Origin: Strigamia acuminata | Taxonomy: Eukaryota | DNA: 64,000 bases | Assembly: GCA_949358305.1 (NCBI GenBank) | Contig: OX442314.1 | Location: 32,550,001 to 32,614,000, forward strand | Direction: 5' to 3' | Shown here: one piece after another, positions 3,972 to 64,000 of the stretch | Layout of the letters: the number at the start of each line of letters is the position of its first letter | Numbering within the stretch: the stretch's first letter is position 1 | Program-made: the position numbers and the translations under genes | The notes under the pieces: generated by a model | What the model was told of the DNA's origin: nothing | Seen by the model: the letters and a program-made list of their open reading frames with translations, nothing else | Database searches by the model: none

Positions 3972-5761
3972 TGCTATTATTGCTACTTTGTTATTAAGTT
4001 ATCGGGTGTGCTGATTTGGCTCTGGTAGTCAGAATATGAGTTATAGTTTCCACCTCCTTGGTTTATATATGCCTTGATTTCGGGTACGTAGTCAAACGTA
4101 GCGGGTGGGCTATTGACACGTTGGCTTGACGTTCGACATTTACTCACGTCTTTTAGTTGGCGACGGCGCATTGCAGCCTGTACTAACAACGTTACTTAAT
4201 AGATTCGTTCTACACAAAACGTGCAGAAGGAAAAAAATCGGGATGCCTGGCTTCTCTGCGGGGTTCCTCGTGACCTTAACTTTACAGTTCGCACATTTTT
4301 CCGTATGTTTCCGTTACGTTAAGACATTTGGTTTATGGTTCTGGAAGATTCTCGTATAACTGAGCTGTAGTTAAGGTATATGCGTGGAATTAAAAAAGAA
4401 AGATTCCCAAGGTGTGGTTTTCCCTCTGCATTTATTTGGTTGGGGTGGAAAAATGAGTAAAAAAGCAATTAAGAGCCAATTACGAGGGCGACAAGCGATA
4501 GCAGTCTTTTTATTTTCTTTTTTTCCTGGCACTTTGCGCCAGCTGCGAAATAATATGATCGCCTGGGAACGATGTATAAAAGTTAAAATTAAGAAAATGA
4601 AATTAGGAAACAGAAAAAGAAAATGCCAGTGCAGCAAACTTAATTAAATCATCATTGCTAAATCTCCAAAAACGTAATTACAACACCATCACCTCCTTTG
4701 TCAATTGAATTTATCCAGTTTTTGAAACTTTGTTTGTTTTTAGGCAATTCACACACACAAAAAAAAATTATCCTTTTCAACTGACTTAATGGCCCAAAAC
4801 AACTTTAATTTTTGAAAAGCACTAAAATCTGATGAACGCAATTAACCCTTCGAAGTCCCTATAGTTCTCCTTTAGCGATAGTAGTCTTTATTTTTTCCAG
4901 TTTGCTTTGTCGCGTCCTACCTGGTGATAGGTTTAAAGAGCTAACGTGTATTACTTTACCTGTGATTCTACTAAATATGTAAATTACCCAAATGAATACT
5001 AAGTATATGTAAATGAACAAACAGGTTTATTCAATAGGCGTAAGCCTTAAAATACACTCAGTATAAAACTAGAGTCGACTTGGTCAGAGTCGAACAAAGG
5101 ATTTCTCAAGATGGCGTCGTCGGTTCCGCGTGGTCGGCGGAACAAAGGCGGCGTCTCGAGTTGTCGTTAATTCGTCACGGATTCGTCGTTCACGGACGCG
5201 GTGGAATGCTCTTTCGAGTCTTCTATCCGTGCCTGTTGTCTAGGGGTTGGTTTTAGCGTCGCAAGGCTCCGTCCAGAAACGTGGAGTTTCTTACAGGGCA
5301 CTCGGACACTTCGCAATGGAAATAATCGTGGGTCGATTATTCGGTGTGAATCCACAAGGGTTATTTTCCTGCTTTCGCGGGGAAATAACACACAGTGTAA
5401 ATTCGTGAGAGTTACAGTTGCACTGGAATCAGCGGTCCTCGATCAATCCTAACTTTTGGTGGAGTTGGCCTGACGGTGAGGTAGTTGCTGTGTTCTTGGT
5501 GTCGTTTGTGTAAGTTCTGCTTGTAGGGCGCGAAACTCTACCTGATATAGGCCAGGGTGAGGGGCCTGGCTCGGCCAATGGGGGCCGTCCACGCATCACC
5601 TCACCCCCTCGGGGCACGCGCTTCCCAGGGGGGGAAGGCGGAGCCAACGCGAGGGAACTGACCTTTCCCAGTGACTCATGCGGATGGCGTCCACTGGAGG
5701 GACGACCACCCGCAGGGTCACCACACGTCCCTCCCTCAGCTTCGATCATCGATCGGGGCGA

Positions 5762-8584
5762 TTACCCTATCTGGTCCCTCAGCGCAATGGCGGGCAACTT
5801 TCCTCCGCGGGGGCGTAGGATTAGGAGATTAACGGCTGGCGGTGGCGGAGGAAGGCCATCGGGCAGCGACGTGGTCAGATTTGCTGGATTCTCCGACTCG
5901 TTAATAAAAAACTGCGTTTGGCCGGGAGGTCCGTCCGTGCTGTTCCTTCTTTCGTGCACCCAGATTTGGGTCGAAGCGGGGAAGCGGTTGGGACATCGAC
6001 GCATTCGCTGCGTTTCCGGCGGGGTGAGGGGCTCTCGGTGAGCCCGCTGGAGCCGCTGGTGGAGGATCGGGTCGTTGGTCAACCTTATCTCCTTCGCCAT
6101 CCATTGCAGGAAGGATTCACCTTGGCGGTGGGTGGCCAGCAACGCTTGACGAGTCGCCTCCGACATCTGTAGGTTAGGATACTCCACCTCCAGTCGTAAG
6201 TAGAGCTGGGTTGGCGCGGGCGCCGGTGGAGGCAGAGGCGGCGGAGACGGTGGCAGCGGAATTTCCAGCGGTGGAGTGGTTTCCTCCAAGGACAGGGTGT
6301 CCATGCTCGTCGAAGGTGGCGAGGGCGACGGCAGCGGGGGAGTCTGGGGTCCCTTGCGTGATCGCTTCGGGATTAACTTTGGCCGCATACTCGCCCTTCG
6401 TTCCTTCGGGAATACAGGCTTTGGAGTCGGGATATAACTCCGGGCGGCAGGCTCGGGAGGAACCGTCTCGGCCACCACGATGGGGCGGACGGCCTCCTCC
6501 TTAGCGGACGCCTCTTCGGCGACCTTTCGTAGCAACGTCGGGTGGACCCCTGGGTTTTTGTAGCGGAACGCCATCGAACGCATTTTCGCGAACTGGAAAT
6601 TCGGGTTTTCCATGGAGCGGGCCAACTCGAACCGGAGGTCGGCCGCGGCTGGCGTAAACTCGGCCCAAAGTTGGTAGAGGGCCCTGTTCAGAAAGACGCC
6701 CTCTCTGTCGATTATGGTCCAGGCGGCCATCGACTGTCGGCCGTCCAGGAAGAGGGCGGGAGACAGGATTTCGGACATCACGCGTGTTACCTCGGCGTTT
6801 AAGCTGCTTCGGCTGAGTGGCAGGGCGCGGTTTGGATCTGCCGAAAAAGTGGCGGATAGTTTGCGCATTTGGGCTATCGCCCAATTGATGTGCTCCGTCT
6901 GAGCGGCGTCAGCCTGCGTCAAGGCCCGTTCGGCGGTAGCGGGGTGCTCACATTCAGCCTGGTGGGCCTGTAGTTCTCCCAAGGTGGGATTCGCTGCCTC
7001 TCGTTGATTTCGGGCATCCCGCTCTTTCTCCTCGTACCACATGGCGTCACGAGCCGGCCTCGGTGCCTGAGTTGGCGGAGGAACCGGCGGGGGAGCCAGT
7101 CCTGGTGGTCGGTGCGGGACGTATTCTAGGAACGCCTCGCCTGGTCGCATGTTTCCAGGGGGCGCCCATCTAGTTATGGCTGGTGGTGGGGCCTCGAGGA
7201 GAGGCGGCCAGCTTGGTTGGACAGGATGGAAGGTTGGTGCGGACGGCGCAGCTACGGTTTGGTCTGTGGAGGACGTCGGCCGGTTTGCGGAGAATCCGCG
7301 GAAGGCGTTGGTGAGTACCTCTGCCAGTTCTCTGCGGGACATGGGTTTTTCCGGCTCCATCTCTTCGTCCAGATCCATTTTTTCTTCGATGGTTTCGCAC
7401 CATCCTTCGGGTCCCTTCTTCCGATCGGAGGACGACACGGCTGCGGGTCCGGCTCTTGGCGAGTCCGAACTACCGGCGGCGGTCGGCCTCTTCTCGGCGG
7501 CGGCGAGTTTCGCTAGCAGGGTTTGCATCCTTTGCCTGCGGCGAGCTCTGCTCTTCCGGTTGCGCCTGGTGTTGGCGGTTTCGACGTGCGAAGGGGTTAC
7601 CGAGTCTCTTCGGATTTTGTACGGGGGTTCCGCTTGGTCGAACATGGTCGACTCTTCGTCTGACGGCCGGACGGTGCGCACTAGGAAGAGAGAGGGCGCG
7701 GCTGCGGTAGCCGCTTGTCTCTCCTGTTCGTCGACCCGGTCGCTCCACGAGTTGGAAGGTCCGGCTTCTGGATCCAGTCGCAATTCGTTGGATGAGGCGG
7801 GTACAATCACAACTGAGCGCAGGCCTCCCGACTGGACGACCGTTCGAGTTCTCGAATCGGAATTGCTCGAGTGGCCGGGTTGCGTCCCACTCGTCGACGG
7901 GCCGCTCTCCTCGGTGGAGAGGGCCTGCCTAATCTGAGCGGGGCCGCCGTTTGAGCTTGAGGCCTGTCTCTTCAGCCTCCTGACTCGTGTGCCGCTCTGA
8001 AGGATGCCGACTTGATGCAACTGCCACATTTCGGCTTGAGTGGCGATAAAGCCGACGGGCGGCACCCACGGTGTTGCTTGGCGGTCTTCGCGGGCCTCTC
8101 GTAACCATTCTTTGATTTCTCCCGTCGAGAAACCATTTCGCTCCAAAACTCGTATTACGGCACTGGTTGCCGTTCGCTCTAGGTGAGCGATCTCTTCGCG
8201 GACGATTCGTCTCCGCTCTTCTGGCGTTGCGGCGTTGCGCCACCGAAGGCCGGTGTGCTCGTCCGCCTCGGTACCGCCGTACCGAGCTCGAAGTAGCTCT
8301 GAAAAGATAGGGCTCGGCGGATTAAAGGCGGGATTGATCCGCGGCCCCACTCTTTCTCGCATTTTTCTGGGCAAACATTCGACCAGCGTCCTCGATCGGT
8401 CAAAGTATTCTTCGATCGCTCGGGAGTAGCGTAATCTCAGGGCCCAGACATCGGTGTCCTCCTCTGGATAGGCTAGCCGGATAAATTCTGGCATTGCTAG
8501 CCGGAAGATGTTGCCCTTGGTGGGCACTGTAGACGGCAGGGCGTCCCATGATTGTAGCGGGTCGATCTGAAGCATTAAATACAT
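5762..8584 (-). CDS. 940-aa intronless Pro/Arg/Ser-rich protein of unknown function
   Basis: Long uninterrupted ORF. AAGATGGCG motif upstream (~8891-8900, minus strand) and AATAAA downstream (5027-5032, minus strand). No RT, integrase or CCHC motif recognised. Confidence 0.7.
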   Translation of the reverse strand: MYLMLQIDPLQSWDALPSTVPTKGNIFRLAMPEFIRLAYPEEDTDVWALRLRYSRAIEEYFDRSRTLVECLPRKMRERVGPRINPAFNPPSPIFSELLRARYGGTEADEHTGLRWRNAATPEERRRIVREEIAHLERTATSAVIRVLERNGFSTGEIKEWLREAREDRQATPWVPPVGFIATQAEMWQLHQVGILQSGTRVRRLKRQASSSNGGPAQIRQALSTEESGPSTSGTQPGHSSNSDSRTRTVVQSGGLRSVVIVPASSNELRLDPEAGPSNSWSDRVDEQERQAATAAAPSLFLVRTVRPSDEESTMFDQAEPPYKIRRDSVTPSHVETANTRRNRKSRARRRQRMQTLLAKLAAAEKRPTAAGSSDSPRAGPAAVSSSDRKKGPEGWCETIEEKMDLDEEMEPEKPMSRRELAEVLTNAFRGFSANRPTSSTDQTVAAPSAPTFHPVQPSWPPLLEAPPPAITRWAPPGNMRPGEAFLEYVPHRPPGLAPPPVPPPTQAPRPARDAMWYEEKERDARNQREAANPTLGELQAHQAECEHPATAERALTQADAAQTEHINWAIAQMRKLSATFSADPNRALPLSRSSLNAEVTRVMSEILSPALFLDGRQSMAAWTIIDREGVFLNRALYQLWAEFTPAAADLRFELARSMENPNFQFAKMRSMAFRYKNPGVHPTLLRKVAEEASAKEEAVRPIVVAETVPPEPAARSYIPTPKPVFPKERRASMRPKLIPKRSRKGPQTPPLPSPSPPSTSMDTLSLEETTPPLEIPLPPSPPPLPPPAPAPTQLYLRLEVEYPNLQMSEATRQALLATHRQGESFLQWMAKEIRLTNDPILHQRLQRAHREPLTPPETQRMRRCPNRFPASTQIWVHERRNSTDGPPGQTQFFINESENPANLTTSLPDGLPPPPPAVNLLILRPRGGKLPAIALRDQIG

Positions 8585-9720
8585 TTTAATTTCGATACCC
8601 TTTTTATAAATATTTGGAATAAAAATTGCGAGATCGGCGGTGGCACCAAAATTTCTTTCGGTTGTGGCCGCTCCTCTCTGTCCTGATTATTCGCAGGTCC
8701 GCGGTGGTTGGCCGCTGGTGTAGCTCAGTCTTTCTCTTGCTACCTTTTTTAGATTCAGGAGGTCCGCTCAAAACAACGTCGCGTAATATAAAAGAATCGG
8801 TTGTTTTTATTTAAGCTTTTCTACTCGTATTTAATTTATTACGAAGTTTCAACGTTACTTTAAGGTTTTAATTTTTTCTAAGTTTTAGCGACGCCATCTT
8901 GGCAAACAGTTCCTTTGTCTGGGTTTGGAGATCGGAGATCTTCGGGTACGAAAATGGTTTCCGCGCCCGAGCTCCGATTCTACCGAAAATCAACAAAATA
9001 AATACAAAAAGAATTCATCAGTCAAGTTATCACGCGCCACAATCCGACATGGTGTCGGATGTCGGCGGATTACATTTTCGATCTTACGGGAAGATCTTAA
9101 CCTTATGGCGCGCATGCGGATTTCGCGGAGTGCGAAACGGACCCTATATTTAACATTACGGCGGCCTATACCTTGACCCCCTGTTCGCAGTCTCGTGGCG
9201 GATTCTGCGGATTTCACCTATTCGTACAATCCGCACGATCGCGCGTGTTTTATCATTCTTGGCAAACCGTTTTTTGAAAACGCGTTGTAACGCATCCTCA
9301 ACTTTACAAATCTCGCTTAGCGCGATCGCGCTATAACGCTTCTTCGTGTCCAACAAAAACAGCCGATTAAAAACGAAACTTCGGGTTTCGCTAAAACGCG
9401 ATTTTGATATCGGGAAGGGCACGTGACCACGTGGGTAAAAATAGAATCGAGTTTCGTGAAAACCTAATTTGGAGAAACGGCGTGGTGGTTTTGCGAAATA
9501 TGTCACATGTCACGTGATCGGACGTTGGATCTCGTACATAAACGTTCGTGCCTGGTCAAACCAGAGTCTTTAAAAAATATAAATGCATTTCCCGATCATA
9601 GGATTAATTTCGCGCCGTGTGCTCCAGTCATTAATTAGGTTATCTTCGTTGCAACTCGTCATAATAAAATTTTTACAGAAAATCAATCGTTTTGTATTTT
9701 ATTTTCATCTTCCGGGGGTC

Positions 9721-9783
9721 TCGCGCCGTCGTAGTGGACGAGAGTCTTCCCGAACACGTTCGACGGGCTTCACGAACGCTTTC
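9721..9783 (+). promoter_or_regulatory. PSE-like promoter of the ncRNA cassettes (representative copy)
   Basis: TCGC(A/G)CC(A/G)TCGTAG.CGACGCGAGT begins 62-65 nt before an A in nearly all cassettes. A second motif CGTTCGA(C/T)GG lies at about -27. No TATA box. Confidence 0.5.
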
Positions 9784-10037
9784 AGATCGAATGCGGAACT
9801 CGGGCCCGCCGCTCGGTCGAGCGGCGCAGTACCCGCCGAGTGGCGTGGTAGCCGGGTTCTCGCGTATGGCGTATGCGTCTTCACTAAAGAAACGCCTCTC
9901 TCGGTCTCAGACTGGCCTTCGGGCCGGTCAAAAAATAAATAAATAAATAAACGAGTCGGAAAATAGAACGCATCCGTCCCGGCGAATAAAAGCGGTTGGG
10001 GTCGCTGAACGGTGGCAGTGGTGGCGGCGGCAACCCC
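9784..10037 (+). ncRNA. snRNA-like cassette 1 (class A, UUCG hairpin)
   Basis: AGATCGA...TCGGTCT closing stem; internal hairpin CGCCGCTCG-GT-CGAGCGGCG; GACTGGCC-TTCG-GGCCGGTC; GGGG..CCCC end; GTCCCAAAAAATAAG at 10046. Confidence 0.55.
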
Positions 10038-10387
10038 GACGACTCGTCCCAAAAAATAAGCTCTCGTATCGGCACCCGTTCGTTTATTTAAATGTGCGCG
10101 CGGTCGCGTGCATTCTACCCGTGTCCGATGTAGCGATCGATACGGGATAAAAAAAATATCACCCGAAAAAGAAAGACGATTAAAATTTTAATTCTCCGGT
10201 CGTGGCACCGACTTTGCGGCTCGTGCTTTAACCGTTAATTAGGTTATCTTCGTCGTAATTCGTTGGAATAAAAATTTTATAGAAAATCAGCCGTTATGCA
10301 TTTTATTTTCATCTTCCGGGGGTCTCGTGCCGTCGTAGTAGGCGTTAGTTTCAATCATCGCGTTCTACGGATTTTGAGGGGATCCTC

Positions 10388-10681
10388 AGATCGAGACCAA
10401 AGTGAGAGGGCCGTCGCCCCCGTCTCGTGCGCCGCTCGATCCCCGTTTGATGACAAGATGGCATTCGCCTCTCCCACCCGAGGATCGGTCGGTGGTGCGG
10501 TATTTATGCTTGTGCTCCAAATGGGTGGTCGACAGGTCCCCAATCGGTCTCGGGCTCAGACTGGCCTTCGGGCCGGTCAAAATAACAAATAAATGAATAA
10601 ATCGGAAATAGAACGCTCCCGTCCCGGCGAGACTAGGGGCGGGTGGCGTCGTTGAGCGGCGGCAGCGGCGGCGGTAGCCCC
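10388..10681 (+). ncRNA. snRNA-like cassette 2 (class A)
   Basis: Upstream motif at 10325 (-63), distinct body, same UUCG hairpin and terminal module. Confidence 0.5.
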
Positions 10682-11041
10682 GACGACTCGCCCCGAAAAT
10701 AAGCTCCCGCACCGGCATTTCTTCGTCCGTCTAAACCTCGCAGCGCGCGTGCGGTCGCGTGCATTCTACTCGTGTCCGGTGTGGCGATCGGTACGGGGTT
10801 AAAAAAAAATATCACACGCAAAAGGAAAAACGATTAAAATTTTAATTCTTCGGTCGTGGAACCGACTTTGCGGTCCGTGCTTCAACCGTTAATTAGGTTA
10901 TCTTCGTCGCAACTCGTCGTAATAAAAATTTCACAGAAAATCAGCCGTTTCGTATTTTATTTTCATCTTCCGGGGGTCTCGCGCCGTCGTTGTGGACGGG
11001 AGTCTTCCCGAACACGTTCGATGGGTTTTGCCAACACTTTC

Positions 11042-11179
11042 AGATCGAACTCGGGACTCGGGCCCGCCGCTCGGTCGAGCGGCGCACAGTACCCGCCGAG
11101 CGGCGCGGTATTCGATACCCGTCTTTGTAAAAGCAGCCGTGCTTCTTCGGTCTCAGACTGGCCTTCGGGCCGGTCAAAA

Positions 11180-11214
<35 letters not shown>

Positions 11215-11281
11215 ATTGGCCGTAAAATTGGGGCAACTGGGGTCGCTGAGCGGCGGCGGTGGCGACAGCAACGACAGCCAC
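11042..11281 (+). ncRNA. snRNA-like cassette 3 (class A)
   Basis: Upstream motif at 10979 (-63). Shares internal hairpins with cassette 1; UUCG hairpin; 3' box at ~11290. Confidence 0.55.
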
Positions 11282-11628
11282 GACGACTCGCCCCGAAAAT
11301 AAGTTTCCGCGTCGGCATCCGTTCGTTCGTCCGTTCGTTTAAACGTGCGCGCGGTCGCGTGCATCCATGACGTGGCGATCGGTACGGAGTAAAAAAAATC
11401 ACCCGAAAAAGAAAGACGGTTAAAATTTTAATTCCCCTGTCGTAGAACTGATTTCGCGGCTCGCCTTCCAACCGTTAATCATTTTATCTTCGTCGCGACA
11501 GATTCGAATAAAAGTTTTACAAAACAACCGTCGTTTTACATTTTTAAATCATTTCCCGGGGACCATGTACCGTCGCGGTAGACGCGAGTCGCGGTCATCG
11601 CATTCGATAGACTTTGCGGACGTTCTTC

Positions 11629-11809
11629 AGATCGAGACCGGAGTACCTGTTGAGTACCAAATGGCCGGTCGGTCGTTGGTGTGGTTCCGTCTCCTAAAAT
11701 GTTCGTCGCCATTTTCTGTTGGTCGAGTCGCCTACCATCCAATGGTCGGTCGGCGGGTCTCGGTCTCAGACTGGCCTTCGGGCCGGTCAAAAAAAAAAAA
11801 AAAAATTAA

Positions 11810-11844
<35 letters not shown>

Positions 11845-11890
11845 ATGACAGTTGGGCTCGTTGAGCGGTGGCGACGGCGGCGGCAACCCC
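11629..11890 (+). ncRNA. snRNA-like cassette 4 (class A)
   Basis: AGATCGAGACC...GGTCTCGGTCT extended closing stem, unique body, UUCG hairpin, 3' box at ~11899. Confidence 0.55.
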
Positions 11891-12673
11891 GACGACTCGT
11901 CCCAAAAATAAGCTCCCACATCGACACTCATCCGTTAGTCTAAACCTCTTGACGTGCATTCTACTCGCGTCCGACAGATTCGGTTCGTTGTGGGCATAGA
12001 AAACATCCGCACACCGATACGGCATGTTTCGACGTCGATGCGCGACTGCGAAGCCGAGTCCCCGACGACGTACATACTCGCACAAGCGCGTTCGCGCGCG
12101 CGATATTGCGTGTGATGCGATGCCGATGAGCTCGACACGGTCTTTCGACGCGGGCGTCGATAATAATGTCCGGCAACGTGGATAAATGTCCGCAGAGTGC
12201 TTTGTGTTTATGGCAACGCACCGGGACGCAATTAACCAACCACTTACGAAAATTCAAAACATAATTGTTTAACAAAAGGAAACTCGTATAATGTTGAAAC
12301 AATAAAGAAAACGCAAAATTCAGATTCAAATTTAGATTTGAATTAGGTCAGATTAGGCCAGGTTGTAGATCCACAGACTCTCGAGACGACAACAAGAAAA
12401 TAAAAAGGATGCGTTTATCGTTTGTAGGTAGAATCTCGCGCCGAGTTAAATAAAAGTCTTTAAAAAATAGAAATCGATTTCCCGGTCGTAGAATTAATTT
12501 TGTGTCATGTGATCCAGTCATTAATTAGATTTTCGTGGTAGATGTTGCGTGAAACAAGATCGTGAACGTCTCAATTGGTTTACGATTTAAATTTCATCTC
12601 GCAATACACGCTGCACCAACGTAGTCGACGCGAGTTTATATCACTGCACTCGATGGGTTTTGTGAGCATTTTT

Positions 12674-12931
12674 AGACCAATCGATCGTACAGCTTGTTTG
12701 CTAGTTTCCTTTCGAGGTCAGCGGTTAACTCTTTGCATTCTATCATGCTGTTGGTTCCAACGGCGATACGCGTCTCCCGCCTGCCTCTCGGTCTCAGACT
12801 GGCCTTCGGGCCGGTCAAAAAAAAAGAAAAAAATTAATAAATAGATAAATAAGTCGGGAACAAAACGCATCCATCCCGACGAATAGTGACAGTTGGGCTC
12901 GTTGAGCGGTGGCGACGGCGGCGGCAACCCC
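12674..12931 (+). ncRNA. snRNA-like cassette 5 (class A)
   Basis: Upstream motif at 12611 (-63), unique body, UUCG hairpin, 3' box at ~12940. Confidence 0.5.
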
Positions 12932-13657
12932 GACGACTCGTCCCAAAAATAAGCTCCCACATCGACACTCATCCGTTAGTCTAAACCTCTTGACGTGCAT
13001 TCTACTCGCGTCCGACAGATTCGGTTCGTTGTGGGCATAGAAAACGTCCGCACACCGATACGGCATGTTTCGACGTCGATGCGCGACCGCGAAGCGAAGT
13101 CCCCGACGGCGTACATACTCGCACGAGCGCGTTCGCGCGCGCGATAATGCGTGTGATGCGATGCTGATGTCCGTCAACGTGGATATATGTCCACAAAGTG
13201 TCCGGTGTTTATGGCAACGCACCAGGGCGCAATTAACTACCAACGAGAATTGAAAATGTAATTGTTTAATAAAAAGAAACTCGTATAATATTGAAACGAT
13301 AATAAAAACGCAAAATTTAGATTCAAATTCAGATTCGAATTGGGTAAGATTAGGTCAGGTTAGACCCACAAACTCTGGGGGAGCGACACGAAAATGAAAA
13401 GGGCGCACCTATCGCTTATAGATGTCTGGCGATCGACAATGGGTGGACGATTAAAGTTTAAATTTCGGATCGTGGTATCGGTTTCGCGGTTCGTATTCCA
13501 ATAGTTAATCACATTATCTTTGTACCAAACGACCGATACAAAAGTTTTGTAAAATATCCGCCGTTTTATATTTTAATTTCACCTTCCGGTTGCCACGCGC
13601 TGTCGTAGTTGGTGCGAATCTCCATCAACGCATTCGACGGGCTTCGAGAGTGATTCC

Positions 13658-13827
13658 AGTAATCCAGACCAATCCTGGCCCTCGCGGAAATCCGGAGGGT
13701 TTTGGTTTTCCGCGATTGTTTTACTCACTTCTGTGGTTTTTCTACTGTATGAGTTAATAGATGTTCTTTTGAACGTCTCTCTGTACAGAATACGGGGCAG
13801 CTGGCGCCGACAAGCACCGGCAGCCCC
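13658..13827 (+). ncRNA. snRNA-like cassette 6 (class B)
   Basis: Upstream motif at 13595 (-63). 5' hairpin CCCTCGCGGAAATCCGGAGGG, variable middle, GGGGCAG...CAGCCCC hairpin, GTTCAAAAATAAG at 13837. Confidence 0.55.
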
Positions 13828-14492
13828 AAACAATTTGTTCAAAAATAAGCTTCTGCACGGGATTTCCATTTTTAACATTATGGTGTTTTTTTTTTTTATT
13901 GCCACCAAAGCGCGCTACCACCGCAAATTTTCCCGCGTTTGCCATGTACGCGCCGAAAACCACAGGCAATGAACTTTTCCACAAACTGAAAAACAAAATA
14001 TATGGGTAAGCGCACATGGGCGAATAAAACAAGATTAGCCCAATTTCGGAATTTATTGGGTCGACGTTTTGTATTCACGCGTGACGGGGGCACCACATGT
14101 GGAAAACGCGCAAATCACGCGCGAATCACGCGCGTCTACGCACATTGGAAACTTAGTATTAACGTTCGTTTCGAGTTAAATAAAAACGACGACCGTGACG
14201 AGGACCACAAAGACGGCGATAGCAGGATTCGTCGGAACAACGAGGATTGCCAACGAGAGAGACCCGTTCATTTGCCGACGCTCCATAGTTCAAACTTAAA
14301 TCGTTCTCGGACTGCCACCAGATGTCACATCAGCCGCTCACGACATACACACACTTTGGTTCGGCAGCTTATATCAAACGCGCGCGTTTCATCTTCCGTC
14401 TGATCCTCACTGCCACCTCGTGTTCGTTGGTAAGTAAGTTTGATGCTTTGTGTGATTTCTCGGTCAATGGACCACGCCCACGACCACAATCA

Positions 14493-14550
<58 letters not shown>

Positions 14551-14592: not shown

Positions 14593-15172
14593 ATGGCGGA
14601 AGCACCACAAGAGGAGGGTGGCGGCAGGTCATACTCCTGCGCTCTATGCGATGATAAACACCCCGATAGTAAGAAACGTTTATTTATTTACTTATTATTT
14701 TATATCTTTTATTCCATATGTTTTATTTATTTTATATACATAAATATTTTTTAATTTTATTTTAATTTTTTTTTTTTCTTTTTCTTCCCCCCCCCCCCGC
14801 CCCACGTGCCTCAGGACCGGACGGATTCTTCTGCGTCGACGTCTTTCGCCACCAGCGACAGCGACACAACATCCACAAGGACGCGAATGATTTCGTCCGA
14901 GGGCTGTTGAAAAAATTCTCGCGCGAGCCCGTCTGTCTGGCATCGGTGAGTGTCCAATTATCCTCTTCACTCACACACTAGTTAACTAATTCGTATTTTT
15001 ATTTTTTCCCCTTTCTTCTTAGGCGTTGAAACGAGTGCACCGACTCAACGGGCGACGCTGTCCGTTTTGTGCGGAGACGCCCTCTCCCGGGGATCTCGTC
15101 ACTCATTGGGCGGAGGCACACGATTACCAAGCGCCCGCCGGAAATGATGGAGGTGGCGTCAATGAACATTAG
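14593..15172 (+). CDS. Small three-exon double C2H2-like zinc-finger protein
   Basis: Exons 14593-14668, 14815-14945 and 15023-15172 splice GT-AG in frame: SYSCALC...FRHQRQRH...RRCPFCAE...LVTHWAEAH. Confidence 0.75.
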
Positions 15173-15323
15173 TTTTTATTTAATTTTATTTTTTTCTCAT
15201 AATTTGCATTGTCCGACTTTTCCCCATTTGCTTTTATTTTTTTTTTACAAAAAAAAAAAAAAAAAAATCCACATTAATCATCTTTATTGTTATCATTATT
15301 ACAAATACACGATCAATTTTTTC

Positions 15324-16276
15324 TTATCCCGCGTCTTCTTTGCCAGACTCTCGATTCTTTCTCTGAGCTTCGTCACCGTCTCCTTTGTTTTCTTCTGGTA
15401 TGACTCTTACCACACCCACACGGACTAACGCGCTCACCACTGAACCCGACAAAAGAACATCTCCATCTGGGAGCGTCTCGGTCCACATGGAATCGTCTCT
15501 GTTGCGTCCCTTCTTTCGCTCCTCCTCCTCTCGTTCCTCCTCCTTCGTCACTCTTCGAAGTATAAGATCCACCGTCTTCAACCTACCCGTCGGCGCACGC
15601 GGAGTGGAAGCGGTGGACGACTGGAAAAGGAAAGGGGGAAAAAAAATAAACGAAAAAACGAATAAATAATAGGAATCTCAACGGGATACCCCTTTAACTG
15701 GCGTCGTATTCCCCGTCTCAAAAGGGCGCTTCGGCGTCTGCGGCGTTCTTGGTGACGATGGTTGCGATTGCGGCGACTGTGGTCGTGTCGGTGCCTCATT
15801 CCCGGCGATGATTGACATCTGTAAAGAGAGAAATAAATAAATAAATAAATTAAATTAAATTAAATTAAAATAAATTAAATTGAGATACGAACGCGAAGAG
15901 AGGAGGAGAGAAAGGAGACCGAAACACGAACGAGAGGGGAGCGTTACAGTTTCACCGTATAGCGGGTAATTGATTGTTTGATAGCGCGTTGTACGAAATG
16001 AATTATCTCCAAACAAACACCCATTTGTTTATTTATTTGTTAATCTCGCTCGTTCGCTTAATTTTATAAAATTCATTAAACTCATTTGTACATTCATCAA
16101 ATTGATCGTTTCGTTTAGCGATGAAAACAACGACAATTCAGATGTTCACGCGGGCAACATGGCGTATACGTGCGTTTTGTGCACGCAAAATGTGAATACG
16201 GCCAATTGACAAAATAACAATTCATAGACAGAGATTTAACAACTCACCTCTGTGGACGAAGCGCATGGTGCGTCCA
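15324..16276 (-). CDS. Spliced Ser/Pro-rich, charged low-complexity protein
   Basis: Apparent exons ~16247-16276, ~15689-15818 and ~15324-15620 bounded by GT/AG, with AT-microsatellite introns. Confidence 0.45.
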
Positions 16277-16401
16277 TTTTGACGAATGAACCGACACGAC
16301 ACCCGGTGATAACAATGGCGGTGGTAACACGTGACGGGTCACACTTCTAATTAAATAATAATAATAATAATAATAACAATAATAACAATAATAATAATAA
16401 C

Positions 16402-16434
<33 letters not shown>

Positions 16435-18757: not shown

Positions 18758-18899
18758 AGACCAACCGGGACTGATTCGAGCCCTCGCGGAAATCCGGGGG
18801 GTTTCGGTCACAAAAGTCTGCATTCGGGTTGCGCAACCACTCTATTGTTCAGCCGTTGGTCAGCCGGGGCAGTTGGCACCGACGAGCGTCGACAGTCCC
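18758..18899 (+). ncRNA. snRNA-like cassette 7 (class B)
   Basis: AGACC start, CCCTCGCGGAAATCCGGGGGG hairpin, GGGGCAG..CAGTCCC end, TTCCAAAATAAA box. Confidence 0.5.
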
Positions 18900-19753: not shown

Positions 19754-19905
19754 AGACCGAGAGCAGAGCGAAGGGGCCGTCGCCGCTCGGTCGAGCGGCA
19801 CAGTACCCACCGAGTGGCGCGGTACCCGAGTTCTTCTGGCGCCAGTGCCTATATGTGTCACACTTGCACGCCCCTCTCGGTCTCAGACTGGCCTTCTGGT
19901 CAGTC
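19754..19905 (+). ncRNA. snRNA-like cassette 8 (class A, short)
   Basis: Upstream motif at 19691 (-63). Perfect AGACCGAGAG/CTCTCGGTCT stem; hairpin variant GACTGGCC-TTCT-GGTCAGTC; CAAAAATAAG follows directly. Confidence 0.6.
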
Positions 19906-20138: not shown

Positions 20139-20173
<35 letters not shown>

Positions 20174-22486: not shown

Positions 22487-22519
<33 letters not shown>

Positions 22520-30148: not shown

Positions 30149-30182
<34 letters not shown>

Positions 30183-40245: not shown

Positions 40246-40288
<43 letters not shown>

Positions 40289-51104: not shown

Positions 51105-54100
51105 TCACGGACTGGCACGCGTGTCTTTCAAATCGTCAACAAAATACCGCGGGCGATCCACATTAGCCAGGAAAAAGTCTGCGTGGTCCCGATCGATGTC
51201 CTCCATCTTAGAGATCAATCGGGTCAGAAATTCGGGAATTGCAACCGCTGTCATGAACGTTTCAATTCCGTCTGGTCCCCACGTCTGCGCATACTGTGTT
51301 TTTATGGGCAGGTCCGTGCTTATTTTCTTTATAATAGAATGAGCAAAACGTTTGCACTGAAATGTAAATGAGCAAAATTCAATCGAACGAAAGAAAAGAA
51401 CAAACAAACAAACAAACAAACAAACAAACAAACAAACAAACAAACAAAAACATATAAAAATAATAAAAAATCTATAGTCTGTACCAGTTCTTCGTCTTGG
51501 ATCAGTAAATCGTGTCGGTCGGTCGACATGGACGATCGCTTCGGGGCACCTTTGTCAAAGAGGTTCATTCGCCAACTTTTAAGCTTTCCATTGAGCACGT
51601 CTGCGACGTGTTGGAAGCAGATGTTGAAGTGTTTGGTGAGATTTTGCTCAATCGAGTAAGTGGAGTACCTGTGTGAAATAATTAAAACTAGTTTAGCAAA
51701 AAATGAACAAGCGAATTAGACTACGGTGTGGCCAAAAAAATTATAGTTAATTACAGAATAAAATGAAAGAAAACACTCACCGCAGTTTCGTGATAGGAGC
51801 GGGAGGAATTTTACGACAACCGCTACAAAAGAACTTGGTGTAGCTTTTCCGGTTGGTCCATGTCCGCCCCACACATTCTTCGTGTACCGAAGAGGAACAC
51901 GATTTGCAACTCAGTCGCGGACTAGTCGACTCCGCGCAGTAAACACTGTCGCATTTGCTTCCCGTGATGTCTCGTTTCTCGCGATACAAGGCTGTCTGAA
52001 ATTTCAGTCAAACACAAACCACCAAATTAATGAGAGCAGCGGAAAGGATCCCTTTCCTTTACCTTGAACGGATCCGGTTTGTCATTGTCCGGCGACGACG
52101 ACGACGACGATGGCGACGACTTTGTAGTGGGAGTCGGCCCGCGTCCACGTATTTGTTTAGCCTCACGTTCGCGTTTGCTCTTCGCAATGCTAGCGATTAG
52201 ACCGCAATCGCGCTTCATCCCGCGTCCAGGAGCGGTGCCGCGACCATGTCCGACGCGACCGCCGTCGTTTCCACCGTTTCCATCGCCTTCGCCTTCGCCT
52301 TCGTCTTCGTCTTCGCCTTCGTCTTCGTCGTCTTCGATGTCGCTACTGTCGTCGTCGTCGGGTCGTGTCTTCCCGAACAAAAACTTTAGGGCCCGAGCTT
52401 GTCGATTCAAATCGATGGGTTGCTGAAATAAAACAAACAAACAAACAGACGGACAATCGATCAGTCTAGTTGCCCGGGCAGGTCCTTGGGGCGAGACACT
52501 CACGTTCTTCTCCCATTGCGTGTATCCTTCTCGCAACAACTTCATGGTCTTTGGTGTTACCACGATTGCCTAGAGAGAAAATGTCAATGACAAATAAACC
52601 GAATTGTTTTTCCCTCACCTCGTCACCCTTCTTCTTCTTCTCGTTCCCTTGCTGTTGTCGAGCACCACTGTGGTGGGGAGGGGTATCACCTCCTCTCTTC
52701 GTGCCCTTCCCACTTAGCTTCAGAAATGTGGGCAGTACGTCGAATCTGTGTGTCTCTCGCAAATGATATTGCATATTTTCTGATCGTGTGTTGCATAAAG
52801 GACAGTCGTCCGCCTTCTTCCTCGTTAACATCAGTGCCTGTTGAAGAAGAGATGAACGATTGAGATGATCACATCAATGAAAATGGGGGAAAAAAAAAAT
52901 AAAATAAATAAAAAAAATAAATAAATAAATAAATAAATAAATTAAATTAATAAATAAGTAAATAAACAAACAAATAAATAAAGAAATACAGTGTAAGCTA
53001 TGTAGCCCGGATGTAGGATGGGGCCCAGAAATTTGTCCAGTCCAGGCGATGTTCGTTCTGTAGGGTGTGTACACCTTTTTTTATTTATTTATTTTTTTTA
53101 TTTTAGTGTTTTTGTTTTTGTTTTTTTTCTAATTTATTTCATTGGAAAATCGACATTTTTTATTTTTGTCCGAACCACACGGTAATTTTTTCCTTATATG
53201 GGATGCACCGCTTTGCCCGGAATCCGGAAAGGGAAGTCGTCCAAACCAAAGAGTAAATCTAGCATCGCTCCTTATTGGTTGGGCCCGGGCCCGGACAAAA
53301 TTGTCCGGACCACGTAGTTGTCCGGACGGTGTTATGTCCGAGCTACGCAGCTTACATTGTAAATAAAGGCGAACAAACGAATCGCGCGCGTACGCGCTAG
53401 GAAATACCCGACAAAAGTTCTCAAAGTTGCCAACGTGATTGCGCAACAACTCCCTGGCCGGTTTGATTTTTCCAACGTTGTGCATATGCCGCCAGTGATT
53501 ACATATGTCGGCTTTGGGGCCCTTCGGGACTTGGTTTGAGTCGGGACACAACCAACACACCCCATTTCTCGTATCGATGACAGGTTTGTCCTAAACGAGA
53601 AAGATGATTGAACGAACAAACGAACGAACGAATGAGCTGATTGATTGTCGTCGTTGTTACCTTAAGGTGGTCGTAGGACGACCAAATAGCCTGTTGCGAC
53701 GCACTAGTGGTCACGCGTTGCGATGTACTTGCGGTCATGTGTTGCGATGTACTGGCGGTCGTGAGTCTTTCTTCGATTACACTCAACCTTTGATTAAGGG
53801 TGCGTAATTCTTCCGCAATTTGTGTGTATTTAGTCCCACGTCCCTCTTCTTGCTGGTACAAGAAATCTACGCGTGTTTTTAGAACCGTTACATCCTCTGT
53901 TCTCGGCATCGTCGACGTGAGTCTGCCGTCATCGAGTCTAGTGGGGGGGGGGGGAGGAATAAAAAAATAAATAAACGATTAAATAGAATAACAAATAAAT
54001 CATCGCGAGTTACTAGCATCGAGCGCCAAAAAAAAAAAAAAAAAACGGATCGCAATTCGCACGCTTTGAGCCGCGCGTTATATGCGCGCGCTATAGATGT

Positions 54101-56998: not shown

Positions 56999-57264
56999 TG
57001 GAAGTGCTCGTGAATCTGGCGAACGCGGTGATATGAATTCGCGTCATTTAGGACGATGCGACGCGCACCGAGAGATGAAATTTAAATCGTAAACCGATCG
57101 AAACGTTTACGATCTTCGTTTCACACAACACCTAATACGACAATGCAATTAATGGTTGGAGTACACGATGTGAAATTAATTTCACGAATCGGGGAATCAA
57201 TTTCTATTTTCTTCTCTCTACGTATCATTTTTATCCTGTAGTCTTTGTGCGTCTTTTCGTTTTT

Positions 57265-59191: not shown

Positions 59192-59224
<33 letters not shown>

Positions 59225-60029: not shown

Positions 60030-61290
60030 GTAAAAGCTAAGTTCACATGTGCGCGTTGACGCGCGCGTTTTGCGCGTTCGACATGTGAATGCAAAACGTT
60101 GACCATACGTCGCCGCGCGCGTCGCCGCGCCGCAAGTGGACGAATTCCCCGAAATCGCGCGAACGCCGAAAGTTGAAAATATTCAACTTTGACGCGCGCG
60201 ACCACTCGTTGCCACCTTTGTTTTCCAGTGAAATCATTGATTTTTACATTGAAAACAGTCACATTCTATTGAAATGAATTGTTTTCACGTCAAAACAATA
60301 CACGAAAAACAATACAAGAAAAAAAGAGTTCATAAACAAATACAATCGTTTCGACGGTGCGCGTGGAAATTACATGCCGCTCAATGCTCGCCTGCTGCGG
60401 CCGGGGAGATTGCAATTTCCCGTCGAGCAAGCAAACACAAAAACCCACCAAATTTTCAACTTTTCCCATTTTAAAAAACAATTAAATATTCTTTAAATTA
60501 ATAATCAACAATAAAATACCAAAAAAATCAATTCTTAAACAACTTAACAATTTTTGTCTTTGTGCTGCATGGGAACCAAAAAATTGGTTGACGCGAGCTT
60601 GTGACATGCGCTGCACAGCCTCGCGAATCCTAAGTGCGTCCTCAGCCATACGCGTCGGCCTTGACGCGCGCGTTTAGACGCGCACATGTGAACTTAGCTT
60701 AAAGCTGCATTCATATGTCTAGGCGACCGCGTCAGGGCCGACGCGTATAGTTGTGGATGCCTCTAGGATTCGTGAGGCTGTGCAGCGCGTGTCATAAGCG
60801 CGTCTCAATTAATTTTTTTTATTCTCATGCTGCACGTCGTTTTGAATTAACAATACTCGAAAATAGTCGTTTTAACTTTGAAAATAATTGTTTTAATTTC
60901 GAAAATATTCGCTTTCATATCAAAGTGTCCATTCTCACGCTATATAATGTTTAATACGTAATTTTATTATAAAAAATTTTCAATGTATAAACTTTATTTC
61001 TGTTTTCAGTTTCCTGATATGATTAAAGAAAATCCTAAATATTATTTCCAAACATTTATCAAATTCTTTTCAAAAGCAGTTGTGGAGGCGTCTACTACGA
61101 ACGTGTCATCGTGGGCGTCAAATTTGAATATTTTTAACTTTCTGCGTTTGCACGAATTTGCAGAATTCGTCCACTGGCATCGTGGCGACGCATGGTCGAC
61201 ATTTTGTATTCATATGTGACGCGCACTCTATTTACTCACGTAGAACACACGAATCGCGCGCGTCAACGCGCACATGTAAATTTAGTTTCA
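60030..61290. repeat. ~1.25-kb degenerate nested palindrome (foldback-like)
   Basis: 60030-60210 is inverted relative to 61100-61290; 60560-60695 is inverted relative to 60705-60835, around AGCTTAAAGCT (~60696-60706). Confidence 0.75.
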
Positions 61291-61299: not shown

Positions 61300-62755
61300 G
61301 TACGAGTTTTTCCCTTTTTCAACGCGAAATCGTATTCGACTCGTTTTCGAGTCGAGTACGAATTTTGCCCTTCTTCAACGCGAAATCGTATTCGACTCGT
61401 TTTCGAGTCGAGTACGAATTTTGCCCTTCTTCAACGCGAAATCGTATTCGACTCGTTTTCGAGTCGAATGCGAATTTTGTCCTTCTTCAACGCGAAATCG
61501 TATTCGACTCGTTTTCGAGTCGAATGCGAATTCGTATTCGACTCGTTTTCGAGTCGAATGCGAATTTTGCCCTTCTTCAACGCGAAATCGTATTCGACTC
61601 GTTTTCGAGTCGAATGCGAATTCGTATTCGACTCGTTTTCGAGTCGAATGCGAATTTTGCCCTTCTTCAACGCGAAATCGTATTCGACTCGTTTTCGAGT
61701 CGAATGCGAATTTTGCCCTTCTTCAACGCGAAATCGTATTCGACTCGTTTTCGAGTCGAGTACGAGTTTTGCCCTTCTTCAACGCGAAATCGTATTCGAC
61801 TCGTTTTCGAGTCGAATGCGAATTTTGCCCTTCTTCAACGCGAAATCGTATTCGACTCGTTTTCGAGTCGAATGCGAATTTTGTCCTTCTTCAACGCGAA
61901 ATCGTATTCGACTCGTTTTCGAGTCGAGTACGAATTTTGCCCTTCTTCAACGCGAAATCGTATTCGACTCGTTTTCGAGTCGAATGCGAATTTTGTCCTT
62001 CTTCAACGCGAAATCGTATTCGACTCGTTATCGAGTCGAATGCGAATTCGTATTCGACTCGTTTTCGAGTCGAATGCGAATTTTGCCCTTCTTCAACGCG
62101 AAATCGTATTCGACTCGTTTTCGAGTCGAATGCGAATTCGTATTCGACTCGTTTTCGAGTCGAATGGGAATTTTGCCCTTCTTCAACGCGAAATCGTATT
62201 CGACTCGTTTTCGAGTCGAATGCGAATTCGTATTCGACTCGTTTTCGAGTCGAATGCGAATTTTGCCCTTCTTCAACGCGAAATCGTATTCGACTCGTTT
62301 TCGAGTCGAATGCGAATTTTGCCCTTCTTCAACGCGAAATCGTATTCGACTCGTTTTCGAGTCGAGTACGAGTTTTGCCCTTCTTCAACGCGAAATCGTA
62401 TTCGACTCATTTTCGAGTCGAATGCGAATTTTGCCCTTCTTCAACGCGAAATCGTATTCGACTCGTTTTCGAGTCGAGTACGAGTTTTGCCCTTCTTCAA
62501 CGCGAAATCGTATTCGACTCGTTTTCGAGTCGAGTACGAGTTTTGCCCTTCTTCAACGCGAAATCGTATTCGACTCGTTTTCGAGTCGAATGCGAATTTT
62601 GCCCTTCTTCAACGCGAAATCGTATTCGACTCGTTTTCGAGTCGAGTACGAGTTTTGCCCTTCTTCAACGCGAAATCGTATTCGACTCGTTTTCGAGTCG
62701 AGTACGAGTTTTGCCCTTCTTCAACGCGAAATCGTATTCGATTCGCTTTCGAATC
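61300..62755. repeat. 56-bp tandem satellite (with shorter variants) containing a TTTT-loop palindrome
   Basis: AACGCGAAAT recurs at 61321, 61377 and 61433; core GTATTCGACTCG-TTTT-CGAGTCGA(A/G)T(G/A)C. Confidence 0.97.
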
Positions 62756-62796
62756 GTATACGAGATGGTCGATTTTTGTTTCCCGGACTTTGATTC

Positions 62797-64000
62797 GTAT
62801 TCGAGTTGTTACGAGTTCGTATTTTGATCGTATTCGTATTCGAATCGAATTCGAATCGTATTCGAATCGAATACGAATCGAATTCGAGTCGTATTCGAGA
62901 TGGTCGATGATTTCCACTCGCTCGTATACGCGTTGTATACGAGCTCGTATTTTGATCGTAATCGTAAACGAATCGTTTACAAGTCGTATACAAGTTGTAT
63001 ACGACGTGTATACACCTCGTATACGAACGAAGTTTGTGAAAACACAATTTCCAAATAAGACGTATGTGACTACTATGTGTTTTCATGTCGTAGTAAGTAT
63101 CCGGTGGATTTTCCAAACTTCGTTCGTATACGAGGTGTATACACGTCGTATACAACTTGTATACGACTTGTAAACGATTCGTTTACGATTACGATCAAAA
63201 TACGAGCTCGTATACAACGCGTATACGAGCGAGTGGAAATCATCGACCATCTCGAATGCGACTCGAATACGATTCGAATACATCTCGAATACATCTCGAA
63301 TACGAGTCGTACGAGTCAAAGTCCGGGAACGGGTCATCGTATTCGAGTTGTTACGAGTTCGTATTTTGATCGTATTCGTATTCGAATCGAATTCGAATCG
63401 TATTCGAATCGAATACGAATCGAATTCGAGTCGTATTCGAGATGGTCGATGATTTCCACTCGCTCGTATACGCGTTGTATACGAGCTCGTATTTTGATCG
63501 TAATCGTAAACGAATCGTTTACAAGTCGTATACAAGTTGTATACGACGTGTATACACCTCGTATACGAACGAAGTTTGTGAAAACACAATTTCCAAATAA
63601 GACGTATGTGACTACTATGTGTTTTCATGTCGTAGTAAGTATCCGGTGGATTTTCCAAACTTCGTTCGTATACGAGGTGTATACACGTCGTATACAACTT
63701 GTATACGACTTGTAAACGATTCGTTTACGATTACGATCAAAATACGAGCTCGTATACAACGCGTATACGAGCGAGTGGAAATCATCGACCATCTCGAATG
63801 CGACTCGAATACGATTCGAATACATCTCGAATACATCTCGAATACGAGTCGTACGAGTCAAAGTCCGGGAACGGGTCATCGTATTCGAGTTGTTACGAGT
63901 TCGTATTTTGATCGTATTCGTATTCGAATCGAATTCGAATCGTATTCGAATCGAATACGAATCGAATTCGAGTCGTATTCGAGATGGTCGATGATTTCCA
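62797..64000. repeat. 542-bp tandem repeat, each unit with a ~155-bp near-perfect inverted repeat
   Basis: Identical sequence at a 542-nt offset (e.g. 63073 and 63615); 62881-63035 is the reverse complement of ~63115-63270; runs off the window end. Confidence 0.95.

What the first reader, a model, noticed from the sequence alone, without database searches (positions are those of the whole stretch)
4842..64000. Giant piggyBac-linked cargo element (Teratorn-like architecture) in an apparent insect genome
Seen: TTAA|CCCTTCGAAG near the host/element compositional boundary; an intact spliced piggyBac transposase 43 kb inside with no flanking TIRs found; TK, chromatin-type genes, ncRNA cassettes and a palindromic repeat block; shared repeat families across 9-57 kb. 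Established: piggyBac ends are TTAA-CCC...GGG-TTAA and elements are normally ~2.5 kb; Teratorn in fish is a piggyBac-herpesvirus fusion. Inference: this is the left part of a >59-kb transposon or integrated DNA virus that uses piggyBac as its integrase. No viral core genes were recognised in this window.
Basis: partly seen in the sequence, partly recalled or inferred. Interest (0 to 1): 0.85.

Follow-up and report, generated by a model that had tools for sequence, protein, structure and literature searches.

The report
Giant multi-copy piggyBac element in arthropod
An arthropod genome carries many near-identical copies of a gene-rich DNA element over 55 kb long that starts at a piggyBac-style TTAA end and holds an unbroken piggyBac transposase gene; it likely moves as one unit and may be the outer part of an unknown integrated DNA virus, a design for which I found descriptions only in fish.

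Summary
The giant element is real, but its left end is at 9097, not 4842. Public contigs of the same species run straight through 4842 at single-copy depth. At 9097 a high-depth contig starts exactly at TTAA|CCTT. A second high-depth contig follows the DNA to its left as far as 9099 and then leaves the window, which reads as an empty site. The DNA from 4908 to 9096 looks like an LTR retroelement that the giant element interrupted. The six-exon piggyBac transposase (47642-49965) is open, has its DDD triad, and sits at the same contig depth as the rest of the cargo. Cargo depth is roughly 12-45, 60-95 and 113-162 times single-copy in three runs, while the LTR stays level. The cargo holds thymidine kinase, zinc-finger, PHD, coiled-coil and retropepsin-like genes, 15 repeated small-RNA-like cassettes, two tRNA-like units and large palindromes. 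No viral core gene was found, and the right end lies beyond the window. 'Insect' is not supported: the nearest relatives of the host kinase are from a centipede. Verdict: works like Teratorn; membership and viral origin are unproven.

The parts
2937..3971 (-). Host flank: intronless, spacer-less SRPK-type kinase gene (outside the element)
   Evidence: Pfam Pkinase E 1.5e-40. Seven short Strigamia maritima paralogs match at 50-54% over 95-99% of its length. It groups with them in a quick tree, 8 rows, SH-aLRT 99, on long branches.
4842..4859 (+).
   Evidence: X1 record 6, 4670-4934, depth 243.7, 0 differences, against host contigs at 155-246. The 8-mer is expected 1.4 times by chance.
4908..5725 (-). 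Probable 3' LTR of a host retroelement (TG...CA ends, purine tract just upstream on the minus strand, poly(A) signal near 5030)
   Evidence: Sequence. The single-copy contig stops at 4934; depth is very high at 5188 and 5669 and low at 5897. LTR-to-host bin ratio 203, 178, 189 in three runs. No second LTR in the window.
5762..8584 (-). Intronless ORF of the interrupted retroelement (940 codons from the first ATG; 974 stop to stop), function unassigned
   Evidence: Translation. No homolog or family found; fold model unusable. Moderately repeated in all three runs.
9097..9100 (+). TTAA target site at the true left end
   Evidence: X3 record 18 (9097-9731, depth 1763) begins on the first T. X3 record 17 (8630-9099, depth 2064) continues for 90 letters unlike the window.
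9101..9234 (+). Left terminus beginning CCTT (fits the CCYT rule), followed by four copies of a 7-bp subterminal motif; TIR length unknown
   Evidence: one of only two TTAA+CCYT sites; no internal copy of the first 18 bases with fewer than 5 mismatches. A fifth copy of the motif lies at 9065, outside the end.
9546..13850 (+). Array of six repeated cassettes: a shared ~170-bp head, a variable GC-rich body and a terminal hairpin (candidate small-RNA genes)
   Evidence: Contigs skipping one unit (10080-10728 in X2; 12307-13305 in X3) show that array length varies.
14593..15172 (+). Three-exon zinc-finger gene, 118 aa
   Evidence: Open with GT-AG introns; 35% identical to part of the 35-41 kb gene, E 1e-18. 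Weak zf-Di19 match, E 0.0013.
15278..16880 (.). Module present in only a minority of copies
   Evidence: Contig depth 2186-3021 against 13000-14700 in X2; 202 against about 1100-1300 in X3.
18600..32570 (+). Further dispersed cassettes of the same family (heads at 19566, 25129, 26992, 27778, 28603, 30540, 31582, 32243; a partial one near 18.7 kb)
   Evidence: A 3' hairpin followed about 9 nt later by an A-rich box in 8 aligned copies; 2 of 12 pairs show a two-sided change.
20622..21179 (+). Intronless thymidine kinase, eukaryotic/poxvirus TK1 type
   Evidence: PF00265 E 1.2e-52. Best PDB matches score 146-155 bits, a second group 92-109.
23579..24167 (+). Two-exon acidic coiled-coil-type gene; similar genes at 29049-29723 (-), 44347-44896 (+), 46030-47427 (+) and 58425-59458 (-)
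   Evidence: Open spliced frames. Pairwise similarity among some of them is weak (E 0.001-0.13); one intron boundary of the 58-59 kb model was not resolved.
24484..24560 (+). tRNA-like unit with A-box- and B-box-like motifs; second copy at 45630-45706 (-)
   Evidence: Not called by ARAGORN or Rfam; the box labels are recalled.
26259..26750 (-). Retropepsin-like ORF without the catalytic Asp-Thr/Ser-Gly motif
   Evidence: ESM Atlas: top hits at 0.95, all ten best in the retroviral aspartyl protease clan. No Pfam or PDB sequence match; fold model unusable.
35394..41400 (+). Large multi-exon gene with a 45-bp repeat exon and zinc-finger motifs
   Evidence: A 14-exon model is open for 929 codons; 12 of 13 introns are GT-AG and one boundary is unresolved.
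47642..49965 (-). Six-exon piggyBac-family transposase, 38.5 kb inside the left end
   Evidence: PF13843 hits on three frames; open spliced frame; 47-63% identity per exon to a metagenomic relative. Contig depth equals the cargo's: X3 1225-1403 against 1211-1605; X2 18163 against 12684-14596.
51105..52837 (-). Multi-exon gene(s) with a C2H2-like motif and a PHD-like finger
   Evidence: PHD E 1e-4 to 2e-4, below the cut-off; motif census. My spliced model did not close (one boundary wrong).
57019..57187 (-). Inverted copy of the cassette head, beside three 75-bp tandem repeats (57260-57484)
60030..61290 (.). 1.26-kb nested imperfect palindrome
61300..64000 (.). Tandem 56-bp palindromic units, then 542-bp units with 201-bp inverted arms; runs off the window. 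Candidate replication origin or terminal repeat
   Evidence: The origin reading is an analogy from memory (baculovirus hr, herpesvirus ori).

Best explanation
This is the left 55 kb of a giant, multi-copy element that begins at a piggyBac-type TTAA end at 9097, carries an open piggyBac transposase gene 38.5 kb inside, likely moves as one cut-and-paste unit, and is likely the accessory-gene end of an unknown large nuclear DNA virus fused to piggyBac. Shown: the end position, the co-amplification of transposase and cargo, open spliced cargo genes, and dosage that differs between samples. Inferred: the internal transposase binds the two far-apart ends, excises the unit and inserts it at TTAA. This copy landed inside an LTR retroelement and pushed that element's gag-pol and 5' LTR beyond the window. 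TK and the palindromic block would serve DNA replication. The zinc-finger/PHD genes and small-RNA-like cassettes would act on host chromatin and RNA control. Core viral genes would lie downstream. I put the giant piggyBac unit at about 0.85 and a viral origin, given that, at about 0.65-0.7.
For: End: X3 record 18 starts on the first T of TTAA 9097, as expected where copies with different flanks converge. Record 17 leaves the window at 9099. CCTT fits the CCYT rule (PMC10175614 section 5), and CpG content shifts there. Unit: transposase and cargo contigs share depth across 9-60 kb, and X3 contigs of 600-1300 bp differ from the window by about 1% or less. Older insertions: diverged relatives (about 85-88%) of the transposase and of the 51.7-52.1 kb gene occur at single-copy depth in X2 (records 1, 3, 4). 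Transposase open, DDD present. Dosage: summed-bin ratios to host are 203/178/189 for the LTR, 29/25/16 for the retroelement ORF and 116/48/6 for the cargo. Virus-like cargo: intronless TK, origin-like palindromes, tRNA-like units, cassettes ending in a hairpin plus a 3'-box-like motif. In medaka the first 20 kb of each Teratorn end were read as a giant transposon before the herpesvirus core was found.
Against: No polymerase, helicase, capsid, terminase or other viral core gene in 55 kb (420 stretches against Pfam; short or divergent exons would be missed). No right end or second TTAA seen. The empty-site reading rests on two contigs of one run, and record 17 matches only to 9099, one base short of a full TTAA. 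One copy of the subterminal motif lies outside the end (9065). The read-laying tool warns that contig depth is no copy number, and summed bins rise with fragmentation. No listed contig bridges 9096/9097 in the window's form, so this insertion rests on the assembly. The window's transposase departs from all six full-length relatives two residues before the third catalytic Asp, and the whole clade has Asn at the fourth conserved Asp position, so activity is untested. The cargo is unusually intron-rich and low in coding density for most large DNA viruses (own knowledge).
Confidence: 0.6

Rival explanations
1. A giant cargo-carrying piggyBac transposon with no viral ancestry. It gathered host-type genes and repeats and spread by transposition bursts that differ between populations.
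For: No viral core gene. Intron-rich paralogous genes. The TK is of the eukaryotic type. A metagenomic relative of the transposase is followed by 3.5 kb of gene-less repeats and palindromes (L005), so long repeat-rich arms may be a trait of this transposase clade.
Against: TK, origin-like palindromes and tRNA-like or snRNA-like units have no known use in cut-and-paste transposition (own knowledge). The comparably large, high-copy animal elements in the papers I read are viral: Teratorn and endogenous nimaviruses.
Confidence: 0.24
2. The depth comes mainly from a freely replicating virus or a tandem amplicon. The join at 9097 is one rare integration, or an assembly chimera, rather than one of many dispersed insertions.
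For: Cargo depth varies several-fold between runs while the LTR does not. Copies within X3 are near-identical. A contig break at 9097 needs only two different flanks, for example a circle junction plus one insertion.
Against: The join falls exactly on TTAA|CCYT, which a chimera would not favour. Diverged single-copy-depth relatives show earlier integration. All three whole-genome-sized runs of the species hold the cargo. Teratorn also varies between strains, 35-84 copies.
Confidence: 0.12
3. One reading: the element starts at TTAA 4842 and includes the LTR and the 974-codon ORF.
For: TTAA+CCCT is present at 4842, and GC rises near 5 kb. In X3 the ORF region and the cargo have similar contig depth.
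Against: 4670-4934 is spanned at single-copy depth. The LTR and ORF depths do not track the cargo across runs. Record 17 leaves the window at 9099.
Confidence: 0.04

Closest known systems
Teratorn and Teratorn-like elements of teleost fish (piggyBac-alloherpesvirus fusions; PMC5601938, PMC5822658, PMC10175614, PMC13431155)
   Same: TTAA target, CCYT-starting end, a transposase far inside a giant unit, tens of near-identical copies whose number differs between stocks, and cellular-type accessory genes near the end.
   Different: Host is an arthropod. No herpesvirus gene found in 55 kb. The fourth conserved Asp of the transposase is Asn in this clade, whereas Teratorn keeps all four. The passages I read mention no array of small-RNA-like cassettes. 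Full length and right end are unknown.
Endogenous nimaviruses of crustaceans, especially sesarmid ones with a Ginger2-type integrase (PMC10871703)
   Same: Arthropod host; large multi-copy integrated DNA (22-477 copies per haploid genome); intron-containing eukaryote-like genes; a captured, intron-containing DDE transposase with terminal inverted repeats.
   Different: They use tyrosine recombinases or Ginger2 and insert into microsatellites, telomeric repeats or 28S rDNA; this element has a piggyBac transposase and a TTAA end. No nimavirus core gene was recognised here.
Ordinary piggyBac superfamily transposons
   Same: DDD transposase with a C-terminal Cys-rich domain, TTAA, CCYT start.
   Different: More than 55 kb long with at least a dozen cargo genes. 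The transposase belongs to a divergent clade seen here only in unnamed metagenome and Logan records.
Herpesvirus saimiri U RNAs (HSURs; PMC4526738), for the cassettes only
   Same: Repeated units with a shared upstream block, a terminal stem-loop, and an A-rich box about 9 nt downstream that resembles the snRNA 3' box GTTTN0-3AAARNNAGA.
   Different: Expression, start site, cap and Sm binding are untested here. No Rfam match, and the box match is partial.
Starship giant transposons of fungi (as summarised in PMC10175614)
   Same: A giant element with variable cargo modules.
   Different: Tyrosine recombinase at the element's end, few copies, fungal hosts.

Membership tests
piggyBac superfamily | piggyBac-type DDD transposase, open frame | tested here: met
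piggyBac superfamily | End begins with CCYT next to TTAA | tested here: met
   TTAA|CCTT at 9097-9104 at a contig convergence point
piggyBac superfamily | Matching inverted repeat and duplicated TTAA at the other end | not testable with these tools
piggyBac superfamily | Empty target site elsewhere | tested here: inconclusive
   X3 record 17 behaves as the uninterrupted retroelement but matches only to 9099; one run
piggyBac superfamily | Fourth conserved aspartate | tested here: not met
   Asn in the window, in six of six full-length relatives and in L005; a clade trait whose effect is untested
Teratorn-like elements | Giant unit with the transposase co-amplified with the cargo | tested here: met
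   Equal contig depth of transposase and cargo in X2 and X3
Teratorn-like elements | Alloherpesvirus core genes (polymerase, primase, helicase, terminase, capsid) | tested here: inconclusive
   None among 420 stretches, but only the first 55 kb could be read; not filed as a member
Teratorn-like elements | Teleost host | tested here: not met
   Host kinase closest to centipede paralogs
Endogenous nimaviruses | Nimavirus core genes; tyrosine recombinase or Ginger2 integrase; repeat-specific insertion | tested here: not met
   The integrase present is piggyBac and the site is a TTAA inside a retroelement; no core gene recognised in the window
LTR retrotransposon (4908-9096 only) | TG...CA LTR, polypurine tract, LTR more abundant than the internal part | tested here: met
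LTR retrotransposon (4908-9096 only) | gag-pol, second LTR, target duplication | not testable with these tools
   Not in the window; predicted beyond the giant element's right end
snRNA-type small RNA genes (cassettes) | Host PSE-type promoter, capped transcript, 3' box processing | tested here: inconclusive
   Shared head and 3' hairpin plus box; weak fold support, z from +0.2 to -3.6 on the plus strand of 10 cassettes; 5' consensus fold poor; host PSE sequence not available

The most novel reading that the evidence does not exclude
An undescribed lineage of large, intron-rich nuclear DNA viruses of non-insect arthropods (possibly myriapods) has fused with its own clade of piggyBac transposase. 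It persists as tens to more than a hundred integrated copies, still amplifies, and encodes an expanding array of snRNA-type and tRNA-like small RNAs: an independent invertebrate counterpart of Teratorn.
Probability: 0.4. Interest if true: 0.88.

Novelty: new variant of a known kind. Interest (0 to 1): 0.76.

Why it matters
In the papers I could search, piggyBac-bounded giant elements are described only in teleost fish. An arthropod case would show that this fusion arose more than once and would point to a large DNA virus group with no recognised relatives. Even without a virus, it is a natural piggyBac unit over 55 kb long, at a depth that suggests megabases per genome and differs several-fold between conspecific samples. 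That bears on genome-size variation and on how piggyBac pairs ends that lie far apart. The corrected end and the transposase clade give direct handles for finding the right end and for screening other invertebrate genomes.

Tried and rejected
4842 as the end: rejected. The LTR as the giant element's own terminus: held for a time, then rejected once records 17 and 18 were read against the TTAA at 9097. Beetle or insect host: my first guess, not supported. The tree is the quick version with long branches, so 'myriapod' is only a lead. An ionotropic-receptor reading of 721-885 and 1349-1585 is from memory; Pfam gave nothing. Polydnavirus and Polinton readings: no supporting gene or terminus seen; not tested further. 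Word-based homolog searches found nothing for the long ORF or a transposase exon. Exact look-up found none of 4 window proteins. IMG/VR gave 4 TK loci at 37% identity, uninformative, no transposase relative, and no match to the end or cassette patterns. The metagenome scan gave 6 loci: one close (L005) and five at 23-27%. Single-sequence folds of the retropepsin-like ORF and the long ORF's N-terminus had mean pLDDT 40 and 47 and were not searched. Rfam and ARAGORN were blank. No RNA holder was listed. Runs X4 and X5 (other organisms) gave only short low-complexity matches, and X6 only a few short pieces; none of this is evidence of absence. Earlier findings: three look-ups were empty, and one returned unrelated giant-virus MITEs. 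PMC11892584 gave no PSE sequence in the passages read.

Full report
What was checked. The test therefore rests on the window, on public contigs of four runs of the same species label and two of other organisms, and on protein and literature searches. One of the runs may be the window's own source, so they are not all independent.

The proposed end at 4842 does not hold. The motif is there, but TTAACCCT is expected 1.4 times by chance. In run X1 a contig covers 4670-4934 with no difference at depth 243.7, like other single-copy host contigs at 155-246. It stops at 4934, where a repeat starting near 4905-4908 would cut it. From 4908 to 5725 the sequence has TG...CA ends, a purine tract just upstream on the minus strand and a poly(A) signal. 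Depth is very high at 5188 and 5669 and drops by 5897. This fits the 3' LTR of a minus-strand retroelement, preceded by a 974-codon frame with no homolog. No second LTR or pol gene is in the window.

The real end is at 9097. In X3, record 18 (9097-9731, depth 1763) begins on the first T of TTAA, which is followed by CCTT. Record 17 (8630-9099, depth 2064) follows the retroelement up to that TTAA and then runs on for 90 letters unlike the window. I read these as the shared left end of many copies and as the uninterrupted retroelement. The window has only two TTAA+CCYT sites, 4842 and 9097, and CpG o/e rises from 1.1-1.2 to 1.55 across the second. Teratorn papers give CCYT-starting ends and TTAA targets as the piggyBac rule. 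Three caveats: this is one run; record 17 matches one base short of the full TTAA; and the tables were cut (31 joints and 887 loose ends not shown).

The transposase belongs to the unit. Six exons with five GT-AG introns give an open frame of 626-633 aa with the three catalytic Asp motifs and a Cys-rich tail. Its contigs have the same depth as the cargo around it: 1225-1403 against 1211-1605 in X3, and 18163 against 12684-14596 in X2. A search of 1.84 billion representatives with exon 2 gave 904 hits at E up to 0.001 and 23 at 1e-10. The ten looked up are unnamed JGI, ENA or Logan records. Five window exons are 47-63% identical to one of them. The clade has Asn at the fourth conserved Asp. The window's copy also differs from all six full-length relatives two residues before the third Asp, so its activity is open.

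Dosage. Single cargo contigs stand at about 12-45 times single-copy depth in X3 (1087-1763 against 38-89), 60-95 in X1 (14927 and 22722 against about 240) and 113-162 in X2 (12684-18163 against 112). The tool warns that contig depth is no copy number, so these figures are rough. The internal control helps: summed-bin ratios to four host bins are 203, 178, 189 for the LTR, 29, 25, 16 for the retroelement ORF (four bins), and 116, 48, 6 for five cargo bins that I chose outside the cassette array and the minority module. Copies also differ in structure. The 15.3-16.9 kb module is in a minority, and cassette units are skipped in some contigs. Diverged relatives at single-copy depth in X2 point to older insertions.

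Cargo. I scanned 216 of the 232 frames of 85 aa or more that passed a complexity filter (the 16 in the 61-64 kb repeat block were left out), 199 of 226 filtered frames of 45-84 aa, and 5 added stretches against Pfam. Above the curated cut-offs were only the host kinase, TK and two transposase frames; PHD and zinc-finger matches were weaker. No viral core gene appeared. Of seven spliced models, five are open with GT-AG introns throughout, the 35-41 kb and 58-59 kb models each have one unresolved boundary, and an eighth (the PHD gene) did not close (the count of five includes the 118-aa zinc-finger gene and four coiled-coil-type genes minus the unresolved one). The zinc-finger gene is a paralog of part of the 35-41 kb gene. 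The ORF at 26.3-26.8 kb is retropepsin-like by language-model features but lacks the catalytic motif. Fifteen cassettes share a ~170-bp head. Eight aligned 3' ends show a hairpin and an A-rich box resembling the snRNA 3' box quoted in PMC4526738, but fold support is modest and Rfam is blank. Two units look like tRNA-derived Pol III genes. A 1.26-kb nested palindrome and two tandem palindromic arrays close the window.

Host. The flanking kinase lacks the SRPK spacer. Its nearest full-length matches are seven Strigamia maritima paralogs at 50-54%, and a quick tree of 29 of the proteins groups it with them and apart from insect orthologs. Long branches could cause this. 'Arthropod, possibly myriapod' is as far as the evidence goes.

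Mechanism. The most likely reading is a giant piggyBac-bounded unit, moved by its internal transposase into TTAA sites, here into a retroelement copy (about 0.85). Its cargo most likely derives from a large nuclear DNA virus whose core genes lie downstream (about 0.65-0.7 given the first). The rivals are a non-viral cargo transposon, and a mainly episomal or tandem amplicon with a rare or false join.

Comparison and novelty. It works like Teratorn but is not filed as a member: no herpesvirus gene was found and the host is not a fish. Crustacean nimaviruses with a captured Ginger2 integrase are the nearest arthropod precedent. Nine full-text searches, seven of them aimed at such elements, listed no title or abstract describing a piggyBac-bounded giant element in an arthropod. 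Subscription journals are largely missing from the library. Of the papers, I saw passages of PMC10175614 (plus section 5), PMC5822658, PMC5601938, PMC13431155, PMC10871703, PMC4526738, PMC11892584 and bioRxiv 10.1101/2025.04.19.649669; the others only as listings. That preprint's supplementary tables of viral regions in 7,103 genomes were not seen and could cover this genome. Baculovirus hr, herpesvirus origin, YY1 and A/B-box labels are recalled and come from no call.

Verdict: observation partly confirmed, boundary corrected to 9097; a new variant of a known kind; interest 0.76.

Noticed in passing
window 8889-8901 and 5106-5118: The same 13-bp motif (YY1-like, from memory) occurs in the LTR on the plus strand and upstream of the long ORF on the minus strand, hinting at an internal promoter for that ORF and an antisense promoter in the LTR.
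   Followed up: no
P0005, P0006, P0008, P0009, P0007: Five of the 12 relatives inspected end or lose similarity where the window's transposase has intron 2 (four) or intron 3 (one), suggesting shared intron positions. Six others are full-length reading frames.
   Followed up: partly
L005 1135-4694: 3.5 kb of gene-less direct and inverted repeats follow a related transposase; 16 direct families and 13 inverted pairs.
   Followed up: partly
window 23069-23405, 37295-37344, 38960-39010, 55320-55374: Further palindromes inside the cargo.
   Followed up: no
window 1319-1604 and 1952-2230: An 80% identical duplication in the host flank that reads like a decayed receptor-gene fragment (recalled resemblance, no family match).
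   Followed up: partly
window 63845 to 61912: An X2 contig at depth 18381 joins the end of a 542-bp unit to 56-bp-array sequence, so the repeat block is arranged differently in most copies.
   Followed up: no
window 5047-5519: Contigs in X3 and X6 share parts of the LTR and then diverge, pointing to related LTR families in the host.
   Followed up: no
window 53499-53978 (-), 54156-54710 (-), 21498-21854 (-), 33827-34100: More exon-like frames, several with Cys clusters; not modelled.
   Followed up: no
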